From contig NC_057759.1 in the NCBI RefSeq assembly GCF_004010195.1, positions 1,223,212 to 1,287,211 of the forward strand: 64,000 nt of DNA, in the 5' to 3' direction. The notes under the pieces are model-generated. The model was not told where the DNA came from. It did no database searches and saw nothing but the letters and a program-made list of their open reading frames with translations. Origin of the DNA: Chiloscyllium plagiosum (lineage: Eukaryota). Shown one piece after another: positions 4,700 through 38,498 of the stretch. The first letter of the stretch is position 1; every line of letters starts with the position of its first letter. The position numbers were made by a program, and so were the translations under genes.

Positions 4700-5030
4700 G
4701 ATGGGCCGAGTGGCCGCCAGTTTCTCCGCCCCCTGATCAGATTGTGAGAGAGCCGGAGGGAGGAGTTATTAACATGACCCGAGAATGAGCTCCATTAGAG
4801 CTTCATAAAGGGACAATGTCCCAGCTTGAAATCTTCTCTGCCCTTTCCCCCACAGCCCCAATTCCTTTGGTCAAACTGGGAGAGAAGGGAATTGGGGAAA
4901 TGACCAATTGGTGTTTGTTTCTGTGAAGCATTGGGAAAAGCAACGCATGCGCAATGTAGTCCCTCCGCCAATGCTGATTGATCCTGCCGAGAGGAGCGCA
5001 TGCGTGAGGCCCTCCCCCAGCGCTGCCATT
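4700..5030 (+). promoter_or_regulatory. CpG-enriched promoter, copy 1
   Basis: NRF1-type palindromes ACGCATGCGCA (4943-4953) and GCGCATGCGT (4996-5005), GC box near 4725, CCAAT at 4968, YY1-like GCCATT at 5025; directly upstream of a GTGAGT donor. Confidence 0.7.
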
Positions 5031-5168
5031 GAGGAGCATTTACTCAGTGAGTGCAAGAGGTTTGTTTGAAACAGACCGCAATGGAGGGAACAGCAGGCTC
5101 CTTCCAGCAGCTCATCGGGATGGGAGCCTGGGATACAGAGGGGGCTCCGAGACCGGGATTGATTCGGG
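5020..5168 (+). other. Putative first exon, copy 1 (start approximate; ATG at 5081)
   Basis: Ends CGGG|GTGAGT; gcaATGG Kozak context; homologous to 7290-7418 and 23450-23620. Confidence 0.6.
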
Positions 5169-5775
5169 GTGAGTTCAGGGAGAACCGGGGGCTGTTTGTA
5201 AGAGGCCGAGCGGAGCAGGTACTGGTCCCGGAACTTGGAGTGAGCGGGCTGGGGGGACGAGAGAGGCCTTTCTCGGGCTGTGTGTGGGCCTGCTGAGGGA
5301 GGCAGAGCGGGAAGAAGCTGCTGTGGGACATTCTTGGGGTTTACAATCCTCTGAACTCTGTTGAGATATCATTGTTTCCCATTGTTTTTTGAGATTGTGC
5401 AGTCAATATCGGAATCGCAGACCGACCATAGGAATGGGATACTCCTGTAAAAGGAGTGGGTCTTGGGAAAAAAAGATATAGCACCGTTTATTCTCTCTCC
5501 AACAGGTAGTTTATTGGGAGTTGCATATTGAACTGTGTGAGCATTCCGGTGGTGAGTAGTCCCATTCACGGAGTTGGGCAGTTGTTGCTCAGTTTCTCCA
5601 TCTCACTCAATTGGTATTGAAACATATGAAAAACAAACACAATCTCCAGACAGAGGTTCAGCGCAACAATGGAATCAGATCCGTGGTTCTGGTTAAGTTG
5701 CTGGCTTATCCTAATGAATATGCAATGGGACTAGCTTCACATTGATTAACGGGTGGTGTCTCTATCTTCCTCCAG

Positions 5776-5857
5776 ACAAATACCTGAGAGACTAAGACAC
5801 TGTGATACTTCCTCGGTTCAAAGGGAAGTGTGACCAGCTGCCTCGAGCAAACAGCAG
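5776..5857 (+). other. Repeated 82-nt internal exon, copy 1 (type a)
   Basis: tcttcctccAG acceptor and CAGCAG|GTATGT donor, shared by six paralogs. Confidence 0.7.
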
Positions 5858-6134
5858 GTATGTCGCCCATTGACATTTACACCAGTTTTGAAGATAGATA
5901 AACTGAATCCTCATCCAAAGTAGACACTCAGGAACAGCATTAAAATCTGCATTTTAATAACATTTTTTACAATGTAGATAAACAAATAGATCATTCTGTT
6001 ACATAGTCTCAACAACCATCCATGAGGTAGCTACTAAGTACAGAGATGGAGGGAAACTGCTCATCAACAGTTTCTCTCTCTCCATTCTCAGTGCATGTCA
6101 CCCCATTTCCAATAAGTGTCATTATTCACAGCCA

Positions 6135-6430
6135 TCAAGTCACAGAGATGTACAGCATGGAAAAAGACCCTTCGGTCCAAATTGTCCATGCCAGTCAGAT
6201 ATTCTAAACTAAATTTAGTCCCATTTGCCAGCACATGGCCCATATCCCTCTAAACCCTTCCTATTCACATACCCATTCAGGTGCCTTTTAAATATTGTAA
6301 TTGTACCAGCCTCCACCACTTATCCATGCCATTCATGATTTTATGAGCCTCGATAAAGGTCCCTCTCCAGGGAAAACAGCTCCAGCCTATTCAGCCTCTA
6401 CCGCTAACTTAAAACCTCCAACCCAGATGA
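6135..6430 (-). mobile_element. CR1 3' tail fragment
   Basis: Matches CR1 3' ends at 38955-39400 and 24435-24640. Confidence 0.8.
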
Positions 6431-6544
6431 AGCACATTTACATGGAGTTTATCTGTGACTGAGAAGGACAGCATTAATCTTTTACTGAATAGTCATCACA
6501 GACAGAGATGACAATTAAATAATGTGATTTCCAAACAATGTCTG

Positions 6545-7150: not shown

Positions 7151-7156
7151 GGAAAC

Positions 7157-7418
7157 TGAGTGACAGAGCAGGGAAATGGCTTTGATCATCCAGCTCACTC
7201 CAGCCCCAACTGTATCTGGCACTGAACTTTTTCTCCCCAAAGCTGACTGTTCCTGTCCAGAGGAGCGCATGCGTGAGGCCCTCCCCCAGCGCTGCCATTG
7301 AGGAGCATTTACTTAGTGAGTGTAAGAGGTTTGTTTGAAACAGCAGGCTCCTTCCAGCAGCACATCGGGATGTGAGCCTGGGATACAGAGGGGGCTCTGA
7401 CACTGGGATTGATTCGGG
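7157..7418 (+). promoter_or_regulatory. Promoter plus first exon, copy 2 (ATG segment deleted)
   Basis: GCGCATGCGT at 7265-7274, donor CGGG|GTGAGT at 7418/7419; near-identical to copies 1 and 3. Confidence 0.7.
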
Positions 7419-7999: not shown

Positions 8000-8081
8000 G
8001 CAAATGTTTGATGGACCAAGATAATGTAATATTTCCTCAGTACAAAGCCAAGTGTGACCAGCTGCTTCTACCAACCAGCAG
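8000..8081 (+). other. Repeated 82-nt internal exon, copy 2 (type b)
   Basis: tcttcctccAG / CAGCAG|GTATGT; phase-1 frame open (GKCLMDQDNVIFPQYKAKCDQLLLPTSR). Confidence 0.7.
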
Positions 8082-11745: not shown

Positions 11746-11749
11746 AATT

Positions 11750-13060: not shown

Positions 13061-13064
13061 ATTC

Positions 13065-19835: not shown

Positions 19836-20624
19836 AGCACATAAATCCTGTCAGGTTAGTTGGTCCACCGGCAAAAATAGAAAAATCATGCCCACAAGGA
19901 TCACATGGTTGGGAGAGCAAGCATTTCATTAATGAAGTTAAATAGGACAGAGTAAGAGTGAAATATGTCAATCCCAGTGTACAAATGAACTTCCAATTGA
20001 ATTTAAATGCAATGCGTCACATTGGTCAAAAAGTAAACTCCACTTGTTTATTCAGAAATACTGAACACCCTATTGCATGTTCACAATATATTCCAGTTAA
20101 ATGGGGAAAGAAGTAAATAAACATTTAGGTTAATTATTCCTCCAGTTATCTCACCATGGTTTAAACTTGCCGTCTGACTCTGACTGTATGTAATTCATGT
20201 ATCAATTCTGTTTGTCCAAACTGGAGTAATTAGATAGCAGACCAAGTGTCAGATTGAAACAGATATTGCAATTTAATTCATTTCCACAAAGTGAAAACAG
20301 AACACATCTCTTACAAAATGACTGAATAAATACTTTGTTCGTTTTCAAGTGGTCCAAAGGAAAATCAAATATTGACATGAAAAGGTACACATTCAGACAG
20401 ATTCCCAGAGGTTATTGGACACAGATGAAAAAGCTCTTATAAAGTGTTCTTGTTATAAACATGTGAACAATAAATTCAAAATGCACATTCAGAATATAAC
20501 TTACAATCATAAACCATACCATAGAATAAAAGTTGTGGAAATTGTCTAAACTGCTCTAGACTGTCAGAGACTGACAATGGTACTAAAAAGTCTCACTTTC
20601 ATTTACATAATTTCTCCAGTGCAG

Positions 20625-20940
20625 ATATAGGTCATTTGGCCCATCCCTCTACAACAACTCTCCAAAGCGGATCCCACCCAATGTAGACCCCACCCAATCC
20701 CCATAACTCCACGTTTACCATAGTTAACTCACTGACACTGCACATCCTTGAAGACTACGGGACAATTTACCACGGCTAATCCAGCAAACCTGTACATGTT
20801 TGGACCATGCAGAAAAACAAGAGCACCCAGAGGAAACCCATGGAGACACGGGCAGAACGTGCAAACTGCACAGAGATAATGAAGCATGGTTGGAATTAAA
20901 TCTGTTTCCCTGGTGCCACTGTGCCAACATGCCATCCTGA
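20625..20940 (-). mobile_element. Degenerate HE1-type SINE (paralog 28790-29120)
   Basis: Similar to 51340-51612. Confidence 0.7.
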
Positions 20941-21039
20941 GATGGATGGCAATCGATGAAATCTTATTCATGTTGAGCAACAGAGATTTGAAGTAAATAG
21001 AACTCCTGCAGTTTTGGCAAGTGTCATGTTAAATAGAGA

Positions 21040-22140
21040 CAAGTGTGTCAGTACACTCACTTATTCACAGAATACAAACTGACAGGTCCAGATACTTTCA
21101 GGTACAGATGCACTCATCCATTCATATGGTTGAAGCTGTCAGGGATAGACTGATGATTGCACAAACACATTCACATTGCAGAAACAGACTGGTACATTTT
21201 GATAATATACTCACACATTCCCAAAGAAAAATCTGACAGGTATATATTGATAACTACATTTTTACATTCACCTAGAACCGAATGAGGCAGATTGATAACT
21301 AACATCACATTGACATAGCAAAAGCTGACAGGTAGAGACTGATAATGACACTCATATTCACGTAGCAGAATCTGACATGGGTAGATAGATTATTGGACCG
21401 TCATCTTCACATCGTAGAAACTGACAGAGAGAGATAGATAACTAGACAGTCATATTCAAGTTGGAGAAACTGATGGACAGATCAATAACTACACTTCCAT
21501 ATTCACAGATCAGAAACTGACGGGTACAGATGGATAGGTGAAAGTGAGGACCGCAGATGCTGGAGATTAGAGTCAGGAGTGTGGTGCTGGAAAAGCACAG
21601 CAGGTCAGGAAGCATCCAAGGAGCAGAAGAATTGAGGTTTGGGCTAAAAGCCCTTCATCAGTACAGATGGATAACTAAACCATACATTGACATAGCAGAA
21701 ACTGACCGGGAACGATTGACAACCACACTCATGCATTCATGCCGCAGAAAGCAAAAGGTGCATTTCAATACAGACCCCCACATGTTTACTTGGCAGAAGA
21801 TGGCAGGTAGATATTGATAACAATGTTCAAATTTTAACAATGCAGAAACTGACATGGACAGATTGATAATTAAACAATCACATTCACAGAGCAAAAACTG
21901 TCATATTCACATAGCAGAAACCAACAGGTATGGGGTGATAACTTCACTCAAGTATGCATATACGAGAATCTTATTGGGAGAGAGTAATACCTCTACTCGT
22001 ATATTCAGTGAGTGGAAATCCACAGGTACAGGCAGATAACTTCACTCAAGAATGCACATTGCAGAAACTGACAGGGAGAGTGTGACAACTGTACTCACAT
22101 ATTCACGTGTCAGAATCTGCAAGTTGCAGATTGATATATA
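21040..22140 (+). repeat. Degenerate ~48-bp satellite
   Basis: Same monomer as 13815-15055. Confidence 0.88.
21537..21660 (-). mobile_element. Penelope terminal-repeat insertion with 13-bp target duplication
   Basis: GTACAGATGGATA at 21524-21536 and 21661-21673; also present in paralog 29747-29870. Confidence 0.85.
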
Positions 22141-22203
22141 GGCTCTCATTGTAAGTATAAAATGGTTGAGCATATTCTTACTGGAGATCCCACCCCTGCT
22201 ATT

Positions 22204-22295
22204 GGGGCAGCACAGTGGCTCAGTGGTTAGCACTGCTGCCTCACAGCAACAGGGTCCCAGGTTCGATTCCAGCCTTGGGTGACTCTCTGTGTGCA
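22204..22295 (+). mobile_element. HE1-type SINE head
   Basis: GGGGCAGCACAGTGGCTCAGTGGTTAGCA...GGTTCGATTCC (A and B boxes). Confidence 0.82.
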
Positions 22296-23304
22296 GAAGT
22301 TGATATTCATAGGGTATGGGAGTGGAGCATAGTGAGTCTTACCTGAGTCTGTCCAAAGTGGTATCTGGTACATTCAAACTTGTAGGTACTACATGAAACA
22401 CATTCTTATGTCAATGGATGACACCTACAGAGTAAAACAAATTACACTTCAGAAGGTTTGAGTTACAGTCCAGTAACATACTGACATGTAAAGATTGTGA
22501 AATAGGATTTACAAAAATGCTTTTCATCCCAGAAACAGACAGCGCAGATTGGTGTTGAGAGTGTGGTGCTGGAAAAGCACAGCAGGTCAGGCAGCATCCG
22601 AGGAGCAGGAGAATCAATGTATCGGGCATAAGAGCCCATCATCTCGACATTTCAGGCATAAGCCCTCTGATCCTCAGCATCTGCAGAACTCACCTTTCCT
22701 CGGGGCACAGATTGCAGGAATATTTCTAAGAGGCTGGCAAATAGTGTAACGTTTTACTGCTTAGATCAGTGCTTGATGGATACAGAATAGTGTATTGAAG
22801 TAACACTAATTGACTATTACACAAAGGAACAAAGTCTGAATGAACAGTTGTTGAGTTAATGCCAAATGTGTAAATAAGGACAAGACAGATACAAAGTTAA
22901 AGTGACACATATATAGCATTGTCACAGTTGCTTGTTAACAGGCATTCGCATAACACTGAGAAATGCTATAAATCCCTATATGAAGCTGCACGATACCTAA
23001 GCAGTTATTGATAGGTCTCTGGGCCCACAGTTATCAATCAAGTTCTCAGAAATATATTAATCCCACACTCAAGACGTGATTCAACTCTTGACTCAAGAAA
23101 AGTATGACATAGAAACTTCTTCTTTCCATTTCTCTTTAACTCTGTCCAATTGAGAATGAGTTGCCTCAACCCCAAGCGTAGAAAACACTCACGGTCAGGT
23201 TCCAGCGGATTGTGTAACTTGATGACGAATGTAACCACAATTTCAAATGGATGAGTTTTTTTTCACACAGTGATAAATTCTGTGTTAATTCAGAATTCAG
23301 AGGA

Positions 23305-23620
23305 ATTGACAGACAGAGCAGGGCAATGTCTTTGATCATCCAGCTCCGCCTCCAGCTCACTCCAGCCCCAACTGTATCTGGGACTGAACTTTTTCTCCCC
23401 AAAGCTGACAGTTCCTGAGTAGAGGAGCGCATGCGTGAGGCCCTCTCCCAGCGCTGCCATTGAGGAGCATTTACTCAGTGAGTGCCAGAGGTTTGTTTGA
23501 AACAGACCGCAATGGAGAGATCAGCGCCCAGGGAAGCTAGGGAACAGCAGGCTCCTTCCAGCAGCACATCGGGATGGGAGCCTGGGACACAGGGGGCTCC
23601 GAGATCGGGATTGATTCGGG
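23305..23620 (+). promoter_or_regulatory. Promoter plus first exon, copy 3 (ATG at 23512)
   Basis: GCGCATGCGT at 23427-23436; donor CGGG|GTGAGT at 23620/23621. Confidence 0.7.
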
Positions 23621-24068
23621 GTGAGTTCAGAGAATTCAGAGTTTCCCCCTGTTTGTTGAGATTGTGCAGTCAATATCGGAATCGCAGACCGACTGTAGGA
23701 ATGTGGTACTCCTGTTAAAGTGTGTCTTGGGAAAAAAAGATATAGCGCCGTTTTTTTCTCTCTCCAACAGGTAGTGTATTGGGAGTTGCATATTGAACTG
23801 TGTGAGCATTCCGGTGGTGAGTAGTCCCATTCACGGAGGTGTGCAGTTGTTGCTCAGTTTCTCCATCTCACTCAATTGGTATTGAAACATATGAAAAACA
23901 AACACAATCTCCAGGCAAAAGCAGCTCATGCAGCAATGGAATCCGATCCGTGGTTCTGTTTAAGTTGCTGGCTTATCCTAACGAATATGCAATGAATGTG
24001 ACATTGATCAATATTACCAGACTCTCCTCATGTTGGTTAACAGGGGGTGTCTCTCTATCTTCCTCCAG

Positions 24069-24150
24069 ACAAATACCTGAGGGACTAAGACACTGTGATA
24101 CTTCCTCGGTTCAAAGGGAAGTGTGACCAGCTGCCTCAAGCAAACAGCAG
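24069..24150 (+). other. Repeated 82-nt internal exon, copy 4 (type a)
   Basis: Same splice sites; nearly identical to 5776-5857. Confidence 0.7.
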
Positions 24151-24644
24151 GTATGTAGCCCATTGACATTTACACCAGTTTTGAAGATAGATAAACTGAA
24201 TCCTTATCCCAAATAGACACTCAGGAATAAGATTAAAATCTGAATTTAATAAGAACATTTTCTACAATGTAGATAAATAAATAGATCATACTGTTACATA
24301 ATTTCAACAACCATCCGTGAGGTAGCTGCTAAATACAGAGATAGAGGGAAACTGTGCTCATCAACAGTTTCTCTCTCTCTTTTCTCAGTGCACATCACCC
24401 CATTTCCAATGAGTGTTATTATTCACAACCATCGAGTCATAGAGATGTACAGCACAGAAACAGACCCTTCGGTCCATGCCGATCAGATATCCCAAACTAA
24501 TCTAGTCCCATTTGCCAGCAGATGGCCCATATCCCTCTAAACCCTACCTATTCACATACCCATTCAGGTGCCTTTTAAATATTGTAATTGTGCCAGCCTC
24601 CACCACTTATCCATGCTGCTCATGATTTTATGAACCTCGATAAA

Positions 24645-25395
24645 GGGTTGTGAAGAAGGCACGTGGAATGCTCTCCTTCATGGGCAGAGGGATAGAATTC
24701 AAAAGTAGGGATATAACAATGAAACCGTATAAGGCACTGGTGAGATTACAACTGGAGTATTGTGTGCAGTCAGGTCACCACATCACAGGAAGGACATCAT
24801 TGCTGTGGAGAGAGTGCAGAGGAGATTTACTGGAATGTTGCCAGTACTGGTGAATTGTAGCTATCGGGAGAGATTGGAGAGGTTGGGGTTATATTCTTTG
24901 GAACAGAGGTGCCATGATTAAGGAATATTAAATAGTGAATACTAAATAGTGAGCTACGAATGAAGGAGCAGAACTCCGAAAGCTCGTGCTTCCAAATATG
25001 CCTGTTAAATTATAACCTGGTGTGTGTGATTTTTCACAAAATAGTCAGAGGGAGAGATTAGAGTACACAGGAGGAACCTGTTTCCTTTGGCAGAGAGTTC
25101 AAACACCAGGGATCATTGATTCAAACGAAGTGGTGTCGGATTACAAGATATGTGAGGAAAATGTTTTTTATGCATAGAGTCGTGGGTATCTGGAATTCAT
25201 TGCCTGATTTGGTGGTGTAGGCAGAGACTCTAAACTCTTTTAAACAAAAATCCCTGGAACTGCCCCTCAAGTTCCATTAACTGCAAGGCTATGGGCTACG
25301 GCGAGAAGATGGGATGAGAAAGGGCCTCTGCGGGTCTTTGGATTGGCATGGACAAGATGGGCTGAATAGCTCCCTCTGTGCTGTATTATTTTTAT
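24645..25395 (+). mobile_element. CR1 3' part with Penelope fragment (about 24950-25037)
   Basis: YKALVRLQLEYCVQ; paralog of 37060-38010. Confidence 0.85.
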
Positions 25396-25819
25396 GAATT
25401 AGTAGTTATCCATTGGACCCTGCCAGACTTTGCAGAATGAATATGTAAATATATTGACCATATAATGAATGTTACAGTTTGATAACTACACTCACACATT
25501 CACCAAGCAGGAACTGACAGGTATAGATCAATAACTAAACTCACATATCCAAATACCCACTTGCATCAGGTAGGCCCCATTTATGGAGCTGTATGGGTGT
25601 TGTTTCATTTCTGGAACTCATTCCTTTGGGCTTAGAATTTTAAGAAAAATTGGACAAGGAACAGCTCAGGGCAGGAGTGGAATCAGACCCGTGGTTCTGT
25701 TTAAATTGCTGGCTTTAAATTTAAAAAAACCTGAATGATGAGGAACTGAATGTTACATTGATGTTGCCAATCACAATTGATGTTGATTTACAGGAGGTAT
25801 CCCTTCTGTCTTCCTCCAG

Positions 25820-25901
25820 GCAAGTACTCAAAGGACAAAGACAATGTAATATTCCCTCGGTACAGAGCCAAGTGGGACCAGCTGCTTTGAACAAACAGCA
25901 G
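25820..25901 (+). other. Repeated 82-nt internal exon, copy 5 (type b)
   Basis: Same splice sites; TGA where copy 6 has CGA. Confidence 0.7.
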
Positions 25902-26377
25902 GTATGTTACCGCTATCAGAGTGAAGAACATCCTTTCCACAGTCACAGAGTGGATGGAGTCAGGATCACATTGAGCTCCATTCCTAGAGAGATGTGTTCA
26001 AAACAAGAGTCAAACACCACCGAGGAAACGGAAGTTTATATTTTTAAAACTATATTCTAAATGCATCCTACCCAGTTTCAATCAACTTGAATGAATTCTC
26101 ATCCAAAATATACACTGCATTAAAATCTGTACATCGAACAGTACAGGACAGAAATGGGTCCTCCAGCCCACCATGTTGTGTCGAACATGCCGCCAAAATG
26201 CAATTAATCTCTCCTGCCTGGCCTTGGTCCATGACCCTCCATTTTTTACATATTCATTTGCTTACCTAAAAGTCCTTTCTATACTCTTATTGTAACTTCC
26301 TCCATCTCCACCCCAGGCAGTGTGTTTCACTGCTACCACTCTCTTTGTTTAAAAATAAAACTGCCCCTTATATCTCA

Positions 26378-28525
26378 GAGTCATAGAGATATACAGCATG
26401 GAAACAGACCCTTTGCTCCAACCAGTTCATGCCGACCAGCTATCCCAATCCAATCTAGTCCCACCTGCCAGCACCCGGCCCATATCCCTCCAAACCCTTC
26501 CTAATCATATACCCATCCAAACACCTCTTAAATATTCCAATTGTACCAGCCTCCACCACTTCCTCTGGCAGCTCATTCCATACCCGTACCACCCTCTGTG
26601 TGAAAAAGGTGTCCCTTAGGTCTCTTTTAAATCTTTCCCTCTTAAGTATACTCATACTTCCTTTATACTCTAAGGATTCACTCAATCTATCCTGTCTATA
26701 CCTGACATATGGTTCCTTCTTTTTCTTAACCATACACTCAATTTCTTTCGTCATCCAGCATTCCCTATGCCTACCAGCCTTTCCTTTCACCCTGACAGAA
26801 ATGTACTCTCTCTGGATTCTTGTTATCTCAGTTCTGAAGGCTTCCCATTTTCCAGCCGGCCCTTTACCTGCGAACATCTGCCTCCAATCAGCTTTCGAAA
26901 GTTCTTACCCAATACCATCAAAATTGGTCTTTCTCCAATTTAGAACTTCAACTTTTAGATCTCGTCTATCCTTTTCCATCACTATTTTAAATTGAATAGA
27001 ATTATGGTCGCTAGCCCAAAGTGCTCCTCCACTGACACCTCAGTCAGCTGCCCTGCCTTATTTGCCAAGAGTAGGTCAAGTTTTGCACCTTCTCTAGTAG
27101 GTACATTCACATACTGAAACAGAAAATTGTCTTGTAAGCACTCAACAACTTGCTCTCCATCTAAACCCTTAACACTATGGCAGTCCCAGTCGATGTTTGA
27201 AAAGTTAAAATCCCCTACCATAACCACCCTATTATTCTTACAGATAGCTGAGATCTCCTTACATGTTTGTTTCTCAATTTCCCTCTGACTATTCGGGGGT
27301 CTATAATACAATCACAATAAACACCACTATAAACACTGGAGGAAACATCAAAAAAGTGCTTCGCAGGAGGCTCCCAAGCACTGATGATGTCGCCTAGCCA
27401 GGGGACGAAACGTTTGCAACAAAAACTTCCAGCTCGGCGAACAGAACCACAGCAACAATCACAATAAGGTGATTATCCCTTTCTTATTTCTCAGTTCCAC
27501 CCAAATAACTTCCCTGGATGTATTTTCAGGAATATCCTCCCTCAGCACCACTGTAATGCTATCCCTTATCATAAATGCCACTACCCCTCCTCTCTTGCCG
27601 ATCTTTCTATCCTTCCTGTAGCATTTGTATCCTGGAACATTAAGCTGCCAGTCCTGCCCATCCCTGAGCCATGTTTCAATAATTGCTATGATATCCCAGT
27701 CCCATGTTCCTAACCATGCTCTAATTTCATCTGCTTTCCCTGTTAGGCCCCTTGCTTTGAAGTAAATGCAGTTTAATTTATTAGTCCTAATTTGTCCCTG
27801 CTTGCCCTAAGTGTTTGACTCGCTTCTGTTCTCAACTGTACCAGTCTCAGACTTATCTCTTTCCTCACTACTTCCATGGTTCCCACCCCCCATTTTCTCC
27901 CCCCCCCCCGCCCATTTTACTAATTTAAATCCTCCCGAGCAGTTCTAGGAAATTTCCCTGCCAGTAAAGTAGTCCCCTTCCAATTTAGGTGTAATCCGAT
28001 CTTCTTGTACAGGTCACTTCTACCCCAAAAGAGATTCCAATTATCCAAAAATGTGAATCCTTCCCCATACACCAGCTCCTCAGCCATGCATTCATCTGCT
28101 CTATCCTCCTATTCCTGCCCTCACTAGCTTGTAGCACTGGGAGTAACCTCCTTTCTAAATTTCTGCCTAACTCTCTGTAATTTCCCTTCAGAATCTCAAC
28201 CTTTTCCCTTCCTATGTCGTTGGTTCCAATGTGGACAATGACCTCTTGCTGTCTCCTTTTCCCCTGTGAGAACATTCTGCACCCTCTCTGAGACATCCTT
28301 GATCCTGGCACCAGGGAACCAACACACCATTCTGCTTTATCGCTGCTGGCCACAGAAACGTCTGTCTGTACCTCGGACTACAGAATCCCCTCACACAATT
28401 GATCTCTGGAAGCCGATATACCCCTCGTTGCATTAGAGCCAGTCTCAGTATCAGAAACTTGGATTCTCAGGGGAACGTAGCATGAACAGCCATCACCCCC
28501 CTACACTTTCCAAAACATCATACCT
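26378..28525 (-). mobile_element. CR1 with ORF1 SGNH-esterase and APE endonuclease remnants, RT deleted internally (junction about 26640)
   Basis: VIVHIGTNDIG (ORF1); YYRPPNS...VMVGDFNFSNIDW (endonuclease); abrupt fusion SILKR|ERFKRDLR to 3' end. Confidence 0.9.
27321..27454 (+). mobile_element. 134-bp Penelope-type insertion with intact minimal hammerhead core (27378-27417)
   Basis: 13-bp direct repeat ACAATCACAATAA (27308-27320, 27455-27467); gca-CTGATGA-t-gtcgcct-agcc-aggggac-GAAAC-GTT-tgc. Confidence 0.88.
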
Positions 28526-29224
28526 GTCCAAAGGGAAATCAATGTGTACATGAAGAGGTACACATTCAGACAGATACCCAGAGGTTATTGGACACAGAGT
28601 GAGAAAGCTCTTATAAAGTGGTCTGGTTATAAACATGTGAACAATAAATTCAAAATACAGATGCAGAATATAACTTCCAATCAAAAACTATACCATTGAA
28701 TAAATGTTGTGGAAATTAACCAAATTGCTTTCTATTATCGAGACTGACAATGGTAGAAAGAGTCTCACTTTCATTTTCAAGATATAGAATTTCTCCAGTG
28801 CAGAGAGAGGTAATTTGGCCCATCCTCCTGCAACAACTCTCCAAAGCGGATCCCACGCAGATGTAGACCCCACCCTATCCCCATAACTCCATATTTACCA
28901 CAGTTAACCCACTAACACTGCACATCCTTGAAGACTACAGGACAATTTACAATGGCTAATCCAGCAACCCTGCACATCTTTGGACCATGCAAAGAAACTA
29001 GAAGACTCAGAGGAAACTCATGGAGACACGGGCGGAATGTGCAAACTGCACACAGATAATGAACCAAGGCTGGAATTGAATCTGTGACCCTAGCACCACT
29101 GTGTTACCATGCCGCCCTGACATGGATGGCAATAGATAAAATCTTATTCATGTTGAGCAACAGAGATTTGAAGTAAATAGAGCTCCTGCAGTTTCTGCAA
29201 GTGTCATGTTTAACAGAGACAAAT

Positions 29225-30235
29225 GTGTAAGTACACTCACTTATTCACAGAACACAAACTGACAGGTACAGATACTTTCAGGTACAAATGCACTCATCCA
29301 TACATATAGTTGAAGCTGTCAGGGATAGACTGATGGTTGCAGAAACTGTCAGGTACAGATTGAAATCTGCACTCAAACATTCACATTGCAGAAACTGACA
29401 GGTACATTTTGATAACACACCCACATTCCCAGAGCAGAATCTCACAGGTATATATTGATAACTATATTTTTACATTCACCTAGAACCTAATGAGGCAGAT
29501 TGATAACTAAAATCACATTGACATAGCAAAAGCTGACAGGTAGAGACTGGTAATGACATTCTCATATTCACATAGCAGAATCTGACAGGGGCAGACAGAT
29601 AATTGGACTGTCATCTTCACATCACAGAAACTGACAGGGAGAGATAGATAACTAGACAGTCATATTCAAATTACAGAAACTGATGGACAGATCAATAACT
29701 ACACTTCCATATTCACAGATCAGAAACTGACAGGTACAAATGGATAGTCAAAGATGAGGACTGCAAATGCTGGAGATTAGAGTCGGGAGTGTGGTGCTGG
29801 AAAAGCGCAGCAGGTCAGGAAGCATCCAAGGAGCTGGAGAATCGATTTTTTCTTTAAAAGCCCTTCATCAGTACAGATGGATAACTACACCAATACATTC
29901 ACATCGAAGAAACTGACAGGAAAAGAATGATAACTAAACTCATGTATTCCTGTCGCTGAAAGCAACAGGTACATTTCAATATGGACCCCCACATGTTCAC
30001 TTCGCAGAAGATGGCAGGTTGACATTGATAACTACATTCACATTTTAACAATGCAGAAACTGACAGAGACGATTGATTAAGCTATCCCATTTACAGACTA
30101 GAAACTGTCATATTCACACAGTAGAAACCAACAGGTATAGGGTGAAAACTTCACACAAGTATGCACATAGCAGAATCTCACTGGGAGAGGGTGATACCTG
30201 TACTCACATATTCAAATAGCTACAGATTGATACAT
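29225..30235 (+). repeat. Degenerate ~48-bp satellite
   Basis: Paralog of 21040-22140. Confidence 0.88.
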
Positions 30236-31576
30236 AGGCTCTTATTGTACGTATAAAATGGTTGGGTATATTCTCAGTGGAGTTTTGAAGAACAATGTAT
30301 CACCTTTAGAGCAAAAATAAAAGATCTGAAGGGAGTTGACAGAGTTGATGCTGAGAGTATGTCACTGCTCATGAGAGAATCCCGAGTAAGGGACACAGTT
30401 TTGAACAGGAAGCCTTCTGTCTAAGAAAGCAATGCAGAACATTGTCCCCTTATTCTGTTCCACAGAAAGCAGTTAGCGTTGAGTTATCAGCTTAATTTAT
30501 GCTAATGTAGCCATATATCTTTTTTTGATACATAAGGGAGTCTTTGGTTATGGGCACTAAACATCAAAATGAGATGAAGACCATAATTAAAGCCTTGGTG
30601 ATCTGTTCTCAGGACAGAGTACACACAGACAGATAGAAATGTCACAGAATTCTCATGCTTCTTATGGTCTTCTGCTTTGAGATATTTAAAGTGACACAAG
30701 ATTGAAATAAATTAATAACTACAGCATATACACTGTATCTGCAGCATCATTCACCATACATTTTATCTTTAACTTACTGGTATGTGTGTGCTCACAGATC
30801 ACATACTGATCGATTCAGTTATACGTTACCCTGATGTATCAGGAATGGAGTGAAAAAAAAATTAACCATCCATTTCATCAGAAACTTTGAGATGTTGAGA
30901 TATTTGCTCTCTGTCATACCAGTAATTGACAAACTGAGTAAATACAAGATTAGAAACAATAAACTGGCAGTCACAGAATAAAATACTGAGTCACTTGCAA
31001 TAAATCGTTAGGATATAGTACAACTATTCATTAGCTGGAAACTGGCATAAACAATGTAACATCCGCAGTGACATTGCAGATATTGTCAGTAACAATGTAC
31101 AAAGTATTATCCTTTATCAAAATGCTGCAGTTATAAATACAAACCCAACTTCAGTTTGCAGAAGCTGATATTCATAGGGTTTGGGAGTGGAAGGTAGTGA
31201 GTCCTACCTGAGTCTGTCCAAAGATGTACCTGGTACTTTCAAAATTGACACCAACAGAGTAAAGCAACAAGGTACACTTCAGAAGGTTTGAGTTACAGTC
31301 CAGTAACATACTGACATGTTAAGACTGTGAAATAGAGTTTACAAAAATACATCCCAGAAACAGATGGACACAGATTGGAGTCGACAGTGTGGCGCTGGAA
31401 AAGCACAGCAGGTCAGGCAGCATCCGAGGAGCAAGATAATCGATGTTTCAAGCATAAGCCCTTCATCTCGACGTTTTGGGCATAAGCCTCTGATCCCCAG
31501 TATTTGCATTTCTCACTTTCTCCTGGGGGCACAAATTGGAGGAATATTTCTAAGTGGCTGGCAAATAGTGTAACGT

Positions 31577-32110
31577 TTTGGTCCCCACACCTCAGGAAGG
31601 ACATACTGGCACTGGAACGTGTCCAGCGGAGATTCACACGGATGATTCCTGGAATGGTTGGTCTAACATACGAGGAATGGCTCAGGATCCTGGGATTGCA
31701 CTCATTGGAGTTTCGAAGATTGAGGGGAGACTTAATAGAAACTTACAAGATAATACATGGCTTGGAAAGGGTGGACGCTAGGAAATTGTTTCCATTAGGC
31801 GAGGAGACTTGGACCCGTGGACACAGCGTTAGAATTAGAGGGGGTCAATTCAGAACAGAAATGCGGAGACATTTCTTCAGCCAGAGAGTGGTGGGCCTGT
31901 GGAATTCATTGCCACAGAGTGCAGTGGAGGCCAGGACGCTAAATGTCTTCAAGGCAGAGATTGATAGGTTCTTGATGTCACAAGGAATTAAGGGCTACGG
32001 GGAGAATGCTGGTAAGTGGAGTTGAAATGCCCATCAGCCATGATTGAATGGCGGAGTGGACTCGATGGGCCGAATGGCCTTACTTCCACTCCTATGTCTT
32101 ATGGTCTTAT
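31577..32110 (+). mobile_element. Young 5'-truncated CR1, absent from block A
   Basis: Uninterrupted FWSPHLRKDILALERVQRRFTRMIPG...GYGENAGKWS; (TCTTATG) tail. Confidence 0.93.
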
Positions 32111-33314
32111 CGCTCACATCAGTGTTTGATGGTTACAGAATAAAACCGGTCTTGAAATAACATTGACTATTAGATGGAGGACCAAAGCCTCAGTGGACAG
32201 ATATTGAGTTAATGCAAAATGTGTAAATTAGGACATGACAGATATAAAGTTAAAGTGACGCATATATATATATATAGCATGCTAACAGTTGCTGGTTAAC
32301 AGGCATTCGCGTAAGACTGAGAAATGTTATAAATCCTTGCATGAAACTGCAAAACGCCTAATTGAAAAGTGCAGCAATGTGGTTCAGTTACACTGCACGT
32401 ACTTTCAAAGCACACAGTTATCGATACGTCTCTGGGCCCACAGTTATCAGTCAAGGTCTCAGAAATATATTCATCCCACAGTCAAGACGTGACTCAACTC
32501 GTGATTCAAGAAAACTTTTTTCTTATCATTTCTCTTCAACTTCGTGCAATTGAGAACGAGTTGCATCAACCCCAAGTGTAGAAAACATTCACAGTCAGGT
32601 TCCAGTGGTTTGTGTAACTTGAAACAATTGTAATCGCAGTTTCGAATGGATGAGAGCTTTTTTTTTCTACATAGTGACAAGTTTTGTGTTAATTCCAGCC
32701 TATACAGGGGAACAGAAACAGACATGCGGAGCGAGAAACACATAATCACAACAATGAGCAAAAGGAAACTGAGGCCGAAACATCATTTTATTGCTCCTCG
32801 GATGCTGTCTGAACTGCTGTGCTTTTCCAGCACCACTAATCCAGAAATGTTCTTAATTGCTTTAGAGCATCCTGTTATCACTTGGTGAGAACAAATGTTT
32901 TTTATCTTCTGCACATCCTAGGTTCCCCCTTTTGTGGCTTGATGCCTCCCTGCCTGCCTTGTTTATTTTCTTGAGTTCTATAATTCAACATTACATTTAG
33001 TCTAAGTATTTAAGGACAAGTTTTAAGGCTTTCTCATTATACACACGCCCTTTAAATGTTATAATTGTACCAGGCTCCACCACTTCTCCATGTGCCTTAT
33101 GATTTTATAAATTTCTATAAGGTCACTCTCCAGGGAAAACAGTTCCAGCCTGTTCAGCCTCTGCCTGCAGCTCAAATTCTCCAACCGGGATGAAGCACAT
33201 TTACACGGAGTTTATGTGTGACTGAGAAGGACATCATTAATCCTTTACTGAATATTTAATTGTCATCTCGATATGTGACAACTAATGTGAATTTCAAACG
33301 GACAATCTATACAG

Positions 33315-35885
33315 GTAGCTCATGTGCTAATCTCGCAACATGTCCTTTCTATAACCCACAGGCAATACAACTCGATAAACTTCTGCCCATTTCTCATCTG
33401 CCTGAGTGTGATGTTTTCCATTTCCTCATTAAGACATCATTTTTAAGATAATAACAATTAGGGATACATTTGGATTCATTTGTGTATGCCTTTTGATACA
33501 ATTGCTTTAAATTTTCATCTTTTTGCTGTAACTCAGTTAATTTACCTGAGCTACAGATGTCTGCTTTGTCATCTCTGTTCCTGGTTTGTCTCAACTATCT
33601 GATCAAACAGGGTCTCTGCTAATTTCCCTTCAACTTCCTTATCTGTACTCTTTGATCTTTCCTGTTTCAACTGGTGACTTTGTGACCTCGTTACCACACA
33701 GTCAGGAAACATCCCAGGATGTGTGTCCTGCAATAGTTCAGTTGCCTGAATTTCCATTGGCTCTTCAACCACAATCGGCACTCCCACCAGTGAATCAACA
33801 ACATCATTAGCAAGGACAAATTGTATTCCTGGAGCTGAAAGTTTGTCCAGTACTCCTACCATGACTTCTCCCCTCTTCACGAGACACTGTAACCTCACTT
33901 CTTACAATTGAGCATTTCTTATTTCAATGAGAATTCCTGTCACTCATGCCTTTTCTGGCAATAGTCCTTTAGAGGTACATATATCCTCATCTTTTAGCAT
34001 CACAGATTGAGAGGATCCTTATATCTCTGAATATTGTTCCCTCTTTACCTGCTGCTCCTGGCCTATGTGAGTAAACTTTACCTTCACGGTGTATGGTTTA
34101 AGAAGATCTGGCACTTCCTCCATAAACAACCTCCAACCAGCTTGTACATTCTGGTGCACCTTTCTAGTCTCCACAGTGCTCTCTGTTACCACTCCAACAA
34201 AATTCACTGGCTTATCCTGTTTTCCTACATCTGGTTTCTCAGTGCTTTTCCTAACCAGCTAATACTGATTCCATGGCCTACTTTATTAAAAACACCACAG
34301 CTTTTTCACATGTCTTTCCCCTTCAAGGGTTTCCTTTTTACCCTGTGGTAAATTATCCTTGTGATCTTCACAGAGATCTAATTTTTACTTTCCATGTGAG
34401 AATTTCTCTTATCCACAATTATTATCCCTCGTGGATTGATATTGATTTTGGCAGCCCAATTTTGATTGATTGATCAACTCAATCATCAGCCATTTCTGAT
34501 GTCAGTCTTACTGTTTTAACTCTCTGCTCTTACATGTGAGTTCTCATTACTTCAGGAAGTGAATTTTTGAATTCCTGTCGAAGCGTCAATTACCAAAGTT
34601 CAAACTCCCTCTTTATTCCTTTCCTCTCTCTCCTTTTCTCTCTTCTCCCTCTCTTCTACTTTTAATCATAATTCAAACTGTTTCGATTCTGTTGCCCTTT
34701 CCTTGACTTCTGCCTCTAACTCGAGTTGTTTCATTATCAATTAAATGTTAGCCATCCCTAAAGATTCTGATGGCATTTCCAGCAAATTTAAATGGTGAGC
34801 TATGACTGTAATTATCCCCCTTTTCCTCATGGAAGGAGGCAGTTGAGCTCCAGCTTGTCTGTTAATTCCAGCAGCTTGGTATTAATCACTTTCTGCAAAA
34901 ATCTGAAGCCACTTCTTCCACCCCAGAAAACTCTTGATGACTCAAAGAGCCATTGCTATCCCAAACACTGTTTCCTGATGAAGGGCTGATGCCCAAAACA
35001 TGATTCTCCTACTCCCCAGATGCTGCCTGATCTGCTTGGTTTTCCAGTAACACACACTCATCACTGATCTCCAGCATCTGTAGTCCTCACTTTCTCCAAG
35101 CGCTGTTTAAACCAATCGAATTCCAACACCCGGAACAAAAGATGCTAAGACTTACCACTTGCTGCCTTCGAATCCAACAAATCAAATCCCAAATCAGAAC
35201 TACAAAATAAATTCTGCAAACAGCCCCCAATCTGTTATGGAAAAGGCCAGATCCCCTCCAAACATTTCAAGAAAGTAACCCAGACCCTAACTTTGCTAAT
35301 TGTTTTAAACGGATGTAACAAAGATATTCCAGGAGGGGTGCAGCTGGTCAAACCAGTAGTTTTAAACAAAACAGTTTGATTTACACATTTACAGAATGAT
35401 ACACAAACAAAAGAGAGCAGAATACTAAATAACTTAAAAATCTGAAAACTCAACAGATTATACCAACTTTATGATGGTGTTCCCAACATTTACAACAATC
35501 CCCATAAATACCCCTTGGCACAAAAGGTAAAGTCAAACGCAGGGTCTTACAGGAGAGATGTCAGAGAGAGAGTACCATCATGGACCTGCTTCTTTGGGTT
35601 CAGCAACCTTTTCAACTGCCTGACTGCTTTCAGTCAATAGCCAGACAGCCAAAAACCAAATCAAGCTAGAGAAAAGCTGAACTGGGAAAACTGGGCCACT
35701 CCCCTCTCATTGTACAAGTTCTTCTCAAAAATGTGGAAGCCTTTTGACTGAGGCATTACCTGTTAGCTATAATCAAAATGGCCCTAAAACCCATCCACTC
35801 CGACTTTTCGGTACTTGTGTCTTTTACAAGCTTGTTAAAGGAGCAGCAGCAGCATCAGCATCAGCATCACAGCAGACTGCTCCAA
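33315..35885 (-). mobile_element. Gmr1-like Gypsy LTR retrotransposon remnant (LTR, PBS, gag/SCAN-like, protease, integrase start)
   Basis: LTR ends ...TAACA at 35233, then TGGGGGCT (tRNA-Pro-like PBS); EFKNSLPEVMRTH...EMADD near 34480-34575; protease-like RD.GSSQS near 34000-34030; YYLKNDVLMRKW. Confidence 0.85.
34972..35098 (+). mobile_element. Penelope terminal repeat nested in the Gypsy element
   Basis: CTGATGA-a-gggc-tgat-gccc-aAAAC (degenerate core) plus family tail. Confidence 0.8.
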
Positions 35886-35889
35886 GAAG

Positions 35890-36608
35890 ATGATACGAAA
35901 GTCGGAGGAGTTGTTGACAGTGAGGAAGCATGTGGCAGGTTACAGCAGGATATAGAGAAGCTGCAGAGCTGGGCAGAAAGGTGGCAGATGGAATTCAATG
36001 TAGCTAAGTGCGAGGTGATTCACTTTGGGAAGAATAACAAAAAGATGGGGTACTGGGCTAATGGTCGGATACTTGGTAGTGTGGATGAGCAGAGGGATCT
36101 TGGTGTCCATGTACACAGATCTCTGAAAGTTGCCACCCAGGTAAATAGTGCGGTGAGGAAGGCATATGGCGTACTGGCTTTTATTGGTAGAGGAATTGAG
36201 TTCCGGAGTCCTGAGGTCATGATGCAGTTGTATAAGACTCTGGTACGACCGCATCTGGAATATTGTGTGCAGTTTTGGTCGCCATACTATAGGAAGGATG
36301 TGGAGGCATTGGAACGGGTGCAGAGGAGGTTTACCAGGATGTTGCCTGGTATGGAAGAAAAATCGTATGAGGAAAGACTGAGGCACTTGGGGCTGTTTTC
36401 ACTAGAGAAAAGAAGGTTTACGGGTGACTTGATTGAGGTGTACAAGATGATTAGCGGGTTAGATAGGGTTGACAGTGTGAACCTTTTCCCCCCGTATGGA
36501 GTCGGGTATTGGTTAGTGTAGTTTAGGTGGGCTTGGATCGGCGCAACATCGAGGGCCCTAGGGCCTGTACTGCGCTGTATTCTTCTATGTTCTATGTTCT
36601 ATGTTCTA
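35890..36608 (+). mobile_element. Young CR1 3' part
   Basis: Open DDTKVGG...LYKTLVRPHLEYCVQFWSP; (TTCTATG)n tail. Confidence 0.93.
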
Positions 36609-36614
36609 AGTAAT

Positions 36615-38010
36615 ATCCCAAGGGATACAGGGTCATGTGTTGAATTGGATCCAAAGTTGGCTCAGTCACAGGAAAGAAAGGATAATGGTCAATGGTGGCC
36701 CTTGTGAACGGAAAGCTGTTACAAGTGGTGCTCTGCATAGCTCAGTGTTGGGCCCTCTGCTGTTTGTTTTATCCATTAATGATTTGGAGTTGCGTATGTT
36801 GGGCAAATTTGTGAAATTTGCAGATGACACAAAAATTGGCCATGTCGTGGACAGTGTGGAGGATAGCTGTAAGCTCCAAAACTATACAGATGTTTTGGTG
36901 GAGTGGGCAGGATGGAGTTCAGCTCTGATAAGTGTCAGGGAATGCATTTTGGGAAGTCAGACGGTAGGTGGGAATCGACAATAAATTGGAATATACTGAG
37001 GGGGACAGGTGAAGTGAGAGATCTTAGTGTGCAAATGCTCAGGTCCCTAAAGATAGAAGGGGCTGTAAAGAAGGCACATGGAATGCTCTCCTTTATTGGC
37101 AGAGGGTTGAATACAAAAATAAGAAAATAACAATGAAACTGTGTGAGGCACTGGTGGCTACAACAGGAATATTGTGTGCAGTCGGATCACCACATTACAG
37201 GAAGGATGTCATTGTGTGGAGAGTGCAGAGGAGATTTACGAGAATGTTGCCGGGGCTGGTGAATTGTAGCTATCAGGAGAGATTGGAGAGATTAGGGTTG
37301 TATTCCTTGGAACAGTGGTGCCATGATTAAGGAATACAGGGCGACATTCATATCCGTGGGTCCAGTTATCGTGGTTTCACTTAACCGTGGTTTACAATGG
37401 TCAGAGTATATAAAAGGGAATGTTTCAGAACCAGGGGAACAGGAGACTGCCGTGAAGGTGTATTTCCCATTTAAATTAATGGTTTTGCACCTATTTGCAG
37501 TTTTGTGTTTCTGCTGTAGGTCCTGGAAGATATACCCCATGGGTACTGGGGTCTACAGTACTAAATAGTCAGCTACCTGATGAAGAAGCAGCAGTCTGAA
37601 ATTGTGCACTTCCATATAAACCTGTTGAACTATAACCTGGTGTTGTGTGATTTTTAACTAACTAGTGAGAGGGAGACATTAGACAGGAGGAACCTGTTTC
37701 CTTTAGCAGAGAGTTCAAAAACCAGGGATCACAGATTCAAATTAAGTGGCTGTAGGATTGAATTTATGAGGAAAAATGTTTTTTTTATGCAGAGAGTGGT
37801 GGGTATCTGGAATTCGCTGCCTGATTTAGTGGTGCAGGCAGGGACCTTACATATTTTTAGACAAAAATTCCCTGGAACTGCACCTCAAGTGTTGTAAACT
37901 GCAAGTTTACAGGCTCTGGCAGGAAGGTGGGATGAGAAAGGGCATGTAGGCATGGACAAGATGGGCTGAATGCCGCACCCCCCCCCACCTGTATTATTTT
38001 TATGATTCTC
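36615..38010 (+). mobile_element. Older CR1 with nested MITE and Penelope fragment (about 37570-37660)
   Basis: SVLGPLLFVLSINDL...KFADDTKIG. Confidence 0.87.
37337..37558. mobile_element. Tigger/pogo-like MITE
   Basis: TA on both flanks; imperfect inverted ends (CAGGGCGAC..TATCCGTGGG / CCCATGGGTAC..GTCTACAG); absent from paralog at 24925. Confidence 0.65.
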
Positions 38011-38416
38011 CAGTTATCAATGAGACCAGACCAGTCAATGCTGTGTGAATATGTAAATAGATTTACCATATACCAAAAGTTACAGTTTGATAACTACACC
38101 CACACATTCACCAAGCAGGAACAGACAGGTATAGATCAATAAGTAAACTCACATACTAACTTGCATCAGGTGGCCCCATTCATGGAGCTGTATGGGTGTT
38201 GTTTAGTTTCGGAATCTCACTCATCTGGTATTAGAATTTTAAGAACAAATGGACAAGGAGCAGCTCAGAGCAGGAGTGGAATCAGACCCGTGGTTCTGTT
38301 TAAATTGCTGGTTTTAAACAAAAAAATCCTCGTGGTGATTAACTAAATGTTACATTGATGTTGCCAGTCACAACTGATGTTGATTTACAGGAGGTATCTC
38401 TTCTGTCTTCCTCCAG

Positions 38417-38498
38417 GCAAGTACTCAAAGGACCAAGACAATGTAATATTCCCTCGGTACAGAGCCAAATGTGAACAGCTGCTTCGAACAAACAGCAG
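38417..38498 (+). other. Repeated 82-nt internal exon, copy 6 (type b)
   Basis: Same splice sites; phase-1 frame open (GKYSKDQDNVIFPRYRAKCEQLLRTNSR). Confidence 0.7.

What the first reader, a model, noticed from the sequence alone, without database searches (positions are those of the whole stretch)
4700..38498. Tandemly amplified promoter/exon cassette: unannotated multi-copy spliced transcript family
Seen: three copies of an NRF1-palindrome promoter with a first exon ending CGGG|GTGAGT (5168, 7418, 23620), and six copies of a 76-82 nt exon (5776, 8000, 15323, 24069, 25820, 38417). Type a and type b exon bodies differ at many positions and their introns are heavily rearranged, yet all six keep tcttcctccAG and CAGCAG|GTATGT. 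No main CDS is visible downstream. Known: repeated non-coding exon arrays typify small-RNA host genes, piRNA precursors and 5'UTRs of expanding gene clusters. Inference: this is a lineage-specific, birth-and-death lncRNA or leader-exon family under splicing constraint.
Basis: partly seen in the sequence, partly recalled or inferred. Interest (0 to 1): 0.72.

Follow-up and report, generated by a model that had tools for sequence, protein, structure and literature searches.

The report
Shark multi-copy spliced leader exons
A shark genome holds repeated copies of a promoter and short, probably non-coding exons that related sharks do splice into RNA; some database gene models join them to histone genes, but no function is shown.

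Summary
In detail: three NRF1-type promoter/first-exon copies and six 76-82-nt exons lie at the stated coordinates, inside kilobase segmental duplications of a carpet-shark genome. Splice sites are far better kept than the flanking intron (25/28 vs 88/218 invariant columns). An intron-only profile finds the same six copies and no others. The exon 1 to exon 2 joint (5168|8000, GT..AG) appears in 4 of 4 laid runs from three organisms. Those reads are mostly 85-95% alike, so they show the family is spliced, not this locus. Coding is not supported (P=0.30; start codon and frame vary; later exons are often repeat-derived), and no intronic small RNA was found. The family is not unannotated: 17 named gene models from four carpet-shark species carry it. 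Three of these touch histone H2B, and two enter H2B at a shared point upstream of its coding sequence. There is no histone gene in this window. Best reading: a carpet-shark multi-copy spliced non-coding/leader transcript family in histone-gene neighbourhoods, turning over by duplication. A 5'-leader route to spliced H2B mRNA is possible but unproven.

The parts
4650..4962 (+). Upstream promoter region, present only at copy 1: four CCAAT boxes (a fifth at 4968), an NRF1-like site at 4944 and a ZNF143-like half site at 4955; no TATA box
   Evidence: Motif scan (motif consensuses recalled); 4687-4810 is 87% alike to the start of C. punctatum model P0015; no second copy in the window
4963..5168 (+). 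Promoter/first exon, copy 1: NRF1-like site 4996, ATGs at 5081 and 5120, donor at 5168, alternative donor at 5239; start of transcription not mapped
   Evidence: Depth peak in bin 5064-5427 in 4 of 4 runs; joints from 5168 and 5239
5776..5857 (+). Exon 2, lineage a (TAA in the frame that is open in other copies)
   Evidence: no joint into it among those displayed
7233..7418 (+). Promoter/first exon, copy 2: a 19-nt deletion removes the first ATG, and the second ATG is followed at once by TGA
   Evidence: the start of C. plagiosum H2B model P0006 matches 7236-7283 best (88%)
8000..8081 (+). Exon 2, lineage c; acceptor of the best-supported joint
   Evidence: Joint 5168|8000 in 4 of 4 runs and a depth peak in bin 7976-8339; best window match of the exon in P0001, P0005 and P0006
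13820..15060 (+). Degenerate ~47-49-bp minisatellite array upstream of exon 2; other arrays at about 11.2-11.8, 21.05-22.15, 29.2-30.24 and 47.7-48.0 kb; remnants upstream of the lineage-b exons
   Evidence: part of it is modelled as an exon in Rhincodon model P0004
15297..15398 (+). Exon 2, lineage d (15323-15398), with an alternative acceptor 26 nt upstream (15297)
   Evidence: the X2 joint decodes as 5168|15297 (table 5c; my decoding); same acceptor used in RefSeq model P0001
23395..23620 (+). Promoter/first exon, copy 3 (23-nt insertion and 2-nt deletion relative to copy 1; ATG at 23512)
   Evidence: outside the stretch laid with reads
24069..24150 (+). Exon 2, lineage a, second copy (same TAA as 5776)
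25820..25901 (+). Exon 2, lineage b (TGA in the otherwise open frame)
32699..32870 (+). Probable terminal exon (acceptor TTCCAG|CC), running into a short interspersed repeat; 3' end not mapped
   Evidence: The last 12 residues of RefSeq model P0001 match here; acceptor shown; repeat match
38417..38498 (+). Exon 2, lineage b, second copy; the downstream intron is split by about 4.5 kb of CR1 insertions and resumes at 43079
50483..50611 (+). Further family exon ('exon 3', 129 nt, AG/GT bounded)
   Evidence: Follows exon 2 in C. punctatum models P0007 and P0017, in two different frames
20352..33889 (.). Segmental duplication blocks that carry the cassettes: 20352-22007~28526-30214 (86%), 22286-23291~31151-32695 (73-79%), 6283-7158~33047-33889 (79%); also 5363-6359~23630-24646 (88%), 24940-25945~37559-38542 (82%), 8353-9564~45519-46872 (66-69%, in pieces)
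   Evidence: Self-BLAST

Best explanation
This is part of a carpet-shark (Orectolobiform) multi-copy family of spliced, mainly non-coding transcripts that lies among histone H2B genes and turns over by segmental duplication. A TATA-less, CpG-enriched promoter with NRF1 and CCAAT sites drives a short first exon. That exon is spliced, with alternative donors and acceptors, to one or more copies of the 82-nt exon 2, and then to whatever acceptor follows: exon 3, repeat-derived exons, or in some copies a point upstream of an H2B coding sequence. Selection keeps the splice signals, not a peptide or an RNA fold. Most likely what matters is spliced transcription from these promoters: it supplies 5' leaders to neighbouring genes where one is in reach, and yields short-ORF, probably unstable RNA elsewhere, as in this window. 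Shown: the repeats, splice-site conservation, splicing of the family in related organisms, its presence in four species. From database models only: the H2B link and the downstream exons. Inferred: promoter factors, non-coding status, function.
For: Splice windows (-20..-1 and -3..+6) 25/28 columns invariant across four lineages vs 88/218 in the upstream intron, P=8e-7. The intron-only HMM returns exactly the same 6 copies, so copies were not picked by motif. Joint 5168|8000 GT..AG in 4 of 4 runs: X1 1 contig, X2 1 contig, X6 2 contigs, X12 5 raw reads from 4 starts; depth peaks on exon bins; three more exon-2 joints from other donors or acceptors. Stops in 6/6, 5/6 and 3/6 copies in the three + frames. 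pN/pS 0.47 in the best frame is not significant (P=0.30 best of three). The first ATG is in frame with that frame in window copies 1 and 3, absent in copy 2, and out of frame in models P0003 and P0013. Models continue into CR1 antisense, minisatellite, short repeats, exon 3 in two frames, or H2B. 3 of 19 family models contain H2B sequence.
Against: No laid run is shown to be the window's own species: the best DNA holders have 0.26-0.31 of words, and only 44 of 3845 laid raw reads are 99% or more alike. Transcription of this locus itself is therefore unproven. X1, X2 and X6 are only guessed to be RNA, and no DNA control run was laid. No joint into a lineage-a exon was displayed. There is a weak coding hint: one indel (6 nt) in 82 exon columns vs 14 in 242 intron columns, and single-frame P=0.11. 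No histone gene lies in the window, so the H2B link rests on three automated models whose DNA I could not see. Intron identity may be deflated by misalignment; well-aligned intron patches reach 0.75-0.82, like the exon body.
Confidence: 0.6

Rival explanations
1. The exons are dedicated 5' leaders of histone H2B genes. A distal NRF1 promoter splices past the H2B proximal promoter to make a spliced, polyadenylated, replication-independent H2B mRNA; the copies in this window are orphaned or serve an H2B gene beyond the window's end.
For: Rhincodon P0004 and C. plagiosum P0006 both run exon 2 into a canonical-type H2B core and enter at the same point of a shared ~30-residue stretch before the H2B tail. 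That stretch looks like translated H2B promoter with a TATA-like codon run (my inference from back-translation). P0006's leader matches this window's copy 2 and exon 8000 best. P0007 has an H2B N-terminus beside the exon. H2B genes with an ordinary 5' UTR would be invisible to protein searches.
Against: Only 2 of 19 models end in H2B. Both lack a Met at the position where P0007's H2B starts, so a predictor may have borrowed upstream exons to rescue start-less H2B copies. P0004 has several changes in otherwise conserved core positions. A search with P0006 residues 1-82 found only itself among 3 candidates. No histone sequence or stem-loop in the 25 kb downstream of the last listed exon.
Confidence: 0.2
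2. Exons 1 and 2 are the first coding exons of a fast-evolving small-protein family (or its decayed remnant): the strong-context ATG of exon 1 is read in phase 1 into the open frame of exon 2, and several copies are pseudogenes.
For: The frame is open in 3 of 6 copies and has a single stop in the others. It is in phase with an exon-1 ATG in copies 1 and 3 despite compensating indels. It has the lowest dN/dS of six frames (0.39). The only exon indel is 6 nt. The upstream acceptor makes a symmetric 102-nt exon, used in RefSeq model P0001.
Against: Column-shuffle P=0.11 for that frame and 0.30 for best of three. Variable sites by codon position are 7/25, 12/26 and 9/25, with no third-position excess. 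No common C-terminus among models; Pfam found nothing in the 5 non-histone models of 7 scanned. Models found by a protein search are selected for an open frame.
Confidence: 0.12
3. Small-RNA host or precursor: the exons only serve to release snoRNA/miRNA from the repeated intron segment or the 48-bp arrays, or the transcripts are piRNA precursors against the CR1 copies they read through.
For: The intron segment upstream of the acceptor is retained in 6 of 6 copies. Short-ORF multi-exon transcripts are typical of host genes (established knowledge). Models include antisense CR1.
Against: No Rfam hit at gathering score in 64 kb; best E=0.14 in 4500-39000, far below threshold. The consensus fold is weak (-4.2 kcal/mol) with 0 of 12 pairs compensatory. 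Folding z-scores are between -1.2 and +1.3 in 18 of 18 windows. The minisatellite has TGATAA 24 times vs the C-box TGATGA 3 times.
Confidence: 0.05
4. The unit is a non-autonomous mobile element or a neutral repeat, and its splice motifs persist by recent copying.
For: Many copies genome-wide are implied by summed contig depth and by models on at least seven draft scaffolds. No transposon library could be searched.
Against: Homology blocks have ragged, differing ends of 0.2-3 kb. No terminal inverted repeats around the two cassette regions tested. Copies are all on one strand, and lineages are only 54-73% alike in the intron while the splice sites are invariant.
Confidence: 0.03

Closest known systems
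Multi-exon lncRNAs with constraint limited to promoters, splice sites and exons (as reviewed in PMC5558704; I read 7 passages)
   Same: TATA-less promoter, short exons, conserved splice sites, weak exon-body constraint, narrow phylogenetic range, no coding signal
   Different: Here the promoter and exon are themselves multiplied in tandem and across loci, with one exon type used several times per transcript
Spliced, polyadenylated mRNAs of replication-dependent histone genes (human HIST1H2BC/BD/BK, HIST1H2AC; PMC5100578, 12 passages read; PMC3661734, search listing only)
   Same: A clustered canonical-type H2B gene would yield a spliced transcript
   Different: In the passages read, the mammalian splice donor lies 3' of the stop codon, and the word 'upstream' does not occur in that paper's text. 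The shark models add 5' exons from a separate promoter. Only database models support this, and no H2B is in the window
Public 'uncharacterized' gene models XP_072422816.1 (C. punctatum), LOC122544534/LOC122544537 and XP_043539670.1 (C. plagiosum), LOC125488123 (Rhincodon), LOC132206964/6966/7171 (Stegostoma)
   Same: Same exon 2; XP_072422816.1 has first exon, exon 8000 type, exon 15297 type and the 32699 exon in the window's order
   Different: They are annotated one by one as proteins in differing downstream frames, not as one family; none is identical to the window
snoRNA/miRNA host genes with repeated exons (SNHG14/SNORD116 type; recalled, not looked up)
   Same: Repeated short non-coding exons with a repeated intron segment
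   Different: No structured or Rfam-matching RNA in the repeated intron

Membership tests
Multi-exon lncRNA family | Transcribed and spliced | tested here: met
   Joint 5168|8000 GT..AG in 4 of 4 runs, including one raw polyA run; met for the family, not shown for this locus
Multi-exon lncRNA family | No conserved, translated ORF | tested here: inconclusive
   No significant coding signal (P=0.30); spliced ORFs of 35-153 codons depending on the chain assumed; weak hints remain; no ribosome data
Multi-exon lncRNA family | Constraint concentrated on splice sites | tested here: met
   25/28 vs 88/218 invariant columns; 6 of 6 copies intact
Multi-exon lncRNA family | Mature transcript over 200 nt with mapped 5' and 3' ends | tested here: inconclusive
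   No start or end pile-ups were found (table 6)
5' leader of spliced H2B mRNA | H2B coding sequence downstream in the same transcript | tested here: inconclusive
   Not met in the window; met in 2 of 19 database models; no read evidence
5' leader of spliced H2B mRNA | Intact H2B with its own start codon; polyadenylated, S-phase-independent mRNA | not testable with these tools
   No shark genome or mRNA records available; both models lack the native Met
snoRNA/miRNA host gene | Intronic C/D or H/ACA snoRNA or pre-miRNA hairpin, conserved among copies | tested here: not met
piRNA cluster precursor | Phased 26-32-nt 1U reads in gonad | not testable with these tools
   No small-RNA reads could be laid
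Protein-coding multigene family | dN/dS below 1 in one frame with a shared full-length product | tested here: not met
   Not significant; no shared C-terminus or Pfam family; the test has low power (about 23 codons, 4 lineages)
Transposable element | Fixed ends with terminal repeats | tested here: not met
   Ragged duplication blocks; no terminal inverted repeats in two regions
Transposable element | Match to a curated consensus (Dfam/Repbase) | not testable with these tools

The most novel reading that the evidence does not exclude
Carpet sharks have an amplified, mobile-by-duplication 5' leader module (NRF1 promoter plus non-coding exons) seeded through their histone clusters. It splices into a conserved acceptor upstream of H2B genes, bypasses the S-phase promoter and gives a replication-independent H2B mRNA from the 5' side, the mirror image of the 3' splicing route described in mammals.
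Probability: 0.2. Interest if true: 0.65.

Novelty: new member of a known kind. Interest (0 to 1): 0.37.

Why it matters
At the least, it shows that about 19 scattered 'uncharacterized proteins' in four shark annotations are one spliced, probably non-coding family. It is also a clean natural case where selection holds splice sites fixed across paralogs whose introns have drifted to about 60% identity. If the H2B link is real, it would be a new way for a vertebrate to make histone mRNA outside S phase, testable at once with long-read cDNA.

Tried and rejected
No whole genome was held, so copy number and neighbours beyond the window could not be read. Rfam, tRNA and zinc-finger scans: nothing. 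A degenerate exon/donor pattern in metagenome contigs: 0 matches. Earlier findings by place, sequence and relatives: none overlapping; word look-ups listed only unrelated loci of the same genome. The read lay was crowded by CR1/SINE reads at 85% likeness, so 561 joints and 3599 loose ends were not displayed and the exon after 8081 could not be read from it. ESM Atlas: no usable hit, which is no evidence either way. The exon-1 peptide profile found only 2 of 61 candidates, both already known. Two of 17 hits (P0014, P0018) are unrelated repeat proteins and were dropped. P0009 and P0011 were not looked up for source. The intronic hairpin near -140 was rejected for lack of covariation. A C/D-box reading of the minisatellite was rejected. 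Literature: searches listed no paper on this family. I saw listings and abstract starts only, plus passages of PMC13100897 (3 passages, none on histones), PMC5100578 and PMC5558704. Subscription papers and supplements were not searched, so absence from print is not established.
Full report
Setting. The window is 42% GC, dense in broken LINE and SINE pieces, with one 271-base gap. Its closest protein matches are from Chiloscyllium, Rhincodon and Stegostoma, none identical. I read it as a carpet shark, probably a bamboo/epaulette shark; that is an inference. No genome was held. The window has no Rfam gene, tRNA, zinc-finger array or histone.

Observation. The acceptor-to-donor pattern occurs 6 times, all on +, and never in 100 shuffles. 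The six exons fall into four lineages: 5776/24069 (97% alike), 25820/38417 (93%), 8000, and 15323; bodies are 74-80% alike between lineages. They sit in overlapping duplication blocks of 0.2-3 kb at 66-88% identity with differing ends, later split by CR1 insertions. This is the pattern of unequal crossing-over, not of a transposon; no terminal inverted repeats were found in the two cassette regions tested. A transposon library could not be searched.

Constraint. I used one copy per lineage. Standard splice windows have 25 of 28 gap-free columns invariant, the exon body 42 of 70, and the upstream intron 88 of 218 (splice vs intron P=8e-7; body vs intron P=0.006). The longest invariant run in the intron is 6, against 11 at the acceptor and 12 at the donor. 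A profile built from the intron alone returns the same six copies and no seventh, so the result is not an effect of finding copies by their motif. Caveat: well-aligned intron patches reach 75-82% identity, like the exon body, so the firm signal is at the splice sites.

Splicing. I laid four runs from three coded organisms on 4700-15600 at 85% likeness. The top joint is 5168|8000 with GT..AG ends, in 4 of 4 runs: 1, 1 and 2 contigs, and 5 raw polyA reads from 4 starts. Depth peaks on the first-exon bin (571, 14.9, 2031, 637), the 8000 bin (206, 22.3, 421, 476) and the 15323 bin (159, 3.4, 133, 138). The neighbouring intron bins 5428-5791 and 7612-7975 have 16, 0.4, 7, 7 and 6, 4.1, 4, 4. Values are in the order X1, X12, X2, X6; for X12 they are the first-mate-minus column. 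Rows of table 5c decode letter for letter as 5239|8000 (alternative donor), 5168|15297 (alternative acceptor) and a repeat-derived donor at 13556 into an exon-2 start (my decoding). Limits: the best DNA holders share only 0.26-0.31 of words, and 44 of 3845 laid raw reads are 99% or more alike. These are therefore paralogs or orthologs, and the locus itself is not shown to be transcribed. Three runs are only guessed to be RNA, and no DNA control was laid. Joints 5168-5776 and 7418-8000 were not among the 15 shown (561 hidden). Copy 3 and the later exons were outside the stretch.

Coding or not. One frame of exon 2 is open in 3 of 6 copies and is in phase with an exon-1 ATG in copies 1 and 3. 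It has the lowest dN/dS of six frames (0.39), and the exon has one 6-nt indel against 14 indels in 242 intron columns. Against this, column shuffling gives P=0.11 for that frame and 0.30 for the best of three, and third positions are not more variable (9/25 vs 7/25 and 12/26). The first ATG is missing in copy 2 and out of frame in models P0003 and P0013. An 82-nt exon used twice in a row shifts into a frame with a stop in 5 of 6 copies. I judge it mainly non-coding, with low power.

Relatives. A profile of that frame, with a few flanking intron codons, found 7 of 53 candidates in the longer-protein search and 17 hits among 1.84 billion representatives, 2 of them unrelated and dropped. With cluster members this gives 19 family models; 17 were looked up and all come from four carpet sharks. 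RefSeq model XP_072422816.1 strings together copy-1-type exon 1, the 8000-type exon, the 15297-type exon and a further exon at 32699, in the window's order. Two models continue into an exon at 50483-50611, in different frames. Others continue into antisense CR1, the 48-bp minisatellite or intron. So the family is already in annotations, piecemeal, and has no common product.

The histone link. Three of 19 models contain H2B. XP_048476956.1 (Rhincodon) and XP_043539670.1 (C. plagiosum) end in a canonical-type H2B core. Both enter through the same ~30-residue stretch before the tail, which I infer is translated H2B promoter behind a shared acceptor. GCC20456.1 begins with an H2B tail. The C. plagiosum leader matches this window's copy 2 and exon 8000 best. 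Against over-reading: both long models lack the native H2B Met, so a predictor may have borrowed exons to give start-less H2B copies a start; the Rhincodon core has several substitutions; a search with the leader part found only itself; and the window has no histone. Physical neighbourhood to H2B in three species is likely; a true leader function is open.

Small-RNA host. No Rfam match, no covariation (0 of 12 pairs), and folding z-scores between -1.2 and +1.3 in 18 of 18 windows. The minisatellite lacks a proper C box. piRNA production could not be tested.

How it most likely works. A TATA-less promoter with NRF1-like and CCAAT sites (CpG observed/expected 0.37-0.55 vs 0.27 for the window; motifs, consensuses recalled) starts a short first exon. 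This is spliced to one or more copies of exon 2 and on to the next available acceptor. Duplication multiplies promoters and exons, CR1 insertions stretch the introns, and selection keeps each exon spliceable. Where a gene such as H2B follows, the module can act as a 5' leader; elsewhere it gives short-ORF RNA that is probably degraded. The first three steps are shown for the family; the function is inferred.

Comparison and novelty. It works like a multi-exon lncRNA with constraint on promoter and splice sites (PMC5558704, passages). It meets the splicing and constraint tests, while non-coding status and transcript ends are inconclusive. It fails the small-RNA-host and fixed-end transposon tests. 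Spliced H2B mRNAs are known in mammals, with the donor after the stop codon (PMC5100578, passages); a 5' leader route would differ. Eight literature searches listed nothing on this family, within a library that lacks most subscription papers. Verdict: real, a new member of a known kind, interest 0.37; the H2B-leader reading has probability about 0.2 and would merit 0.65.

Noticed in passing
window 4649-4960, minus strand: The first promoter may be bidirectional. A strong minus-strand donor (GTG|GTATGT) lies near 4649, and contigs of X1, X2 and X6 cover 4861-4924; one 781-nt X6 contig lies on 4700-5047.
   Followed up: no
window 49082-49834, minus strand: A CR1 piece plus unique sequence matches the 3' part of C. 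plagiosum model P0005 (74-79%), but in the orientation opposite to the window's exon-2 copies. This hints at an inversion or at an oppositely oriented cassette beyond the window.
   Followed up: partly
window 11200-11760, 13820-15060, 21050-22150, 29200-30240, 47700-48010: Degenerate 47-49-bp minisatellite whose unit carries CAG and AG|GTA splice-like words. All main arrays are on the + strand; one short inverted block is at about 14748-14885 (weak Rfam mir-8517 hit, E 0.14, far below threshold).
   Followed up: partly
window 5507-5553 and the homologous spot near 23771-23817: Lineage-a introns contain a pyrimidine tract with CAG followed about 47 nt later by G|GTGAGT: a possible optional exon. 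No read evidence was seen.
   Followed up: no
window 18823-19040: Young 21-bp tandem repeat, 10.5 copies, 91% matches, at the end of a CR1 piece.
   Followed up: no
window 10506-10705 and 13119-13325: A 200-bp inverted duplication at 95% identity, much younger than the surrounding blocks.
   Followed up: no
window 41199-42344, minus strand: Longest open frame of the window (381 codons), an endonuclease-side piece of a CR1-type LINE by its sequence (family label from recall).
   Followed up: no
window 46203-46473: Assembly gap of 271 N inside a block homologous to 8353-9564; too short as written to hide a histone gene, but its true length is unknown.
   Followed up: no
run X6, joint 5172->8002: An abundant contig joins exon 1 to 18 letters resembling the intron upstream of the alternative acceptor and then jumps into exon 2; probably a paralog with a small deletion between two CAGG words.
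   Followed up: no
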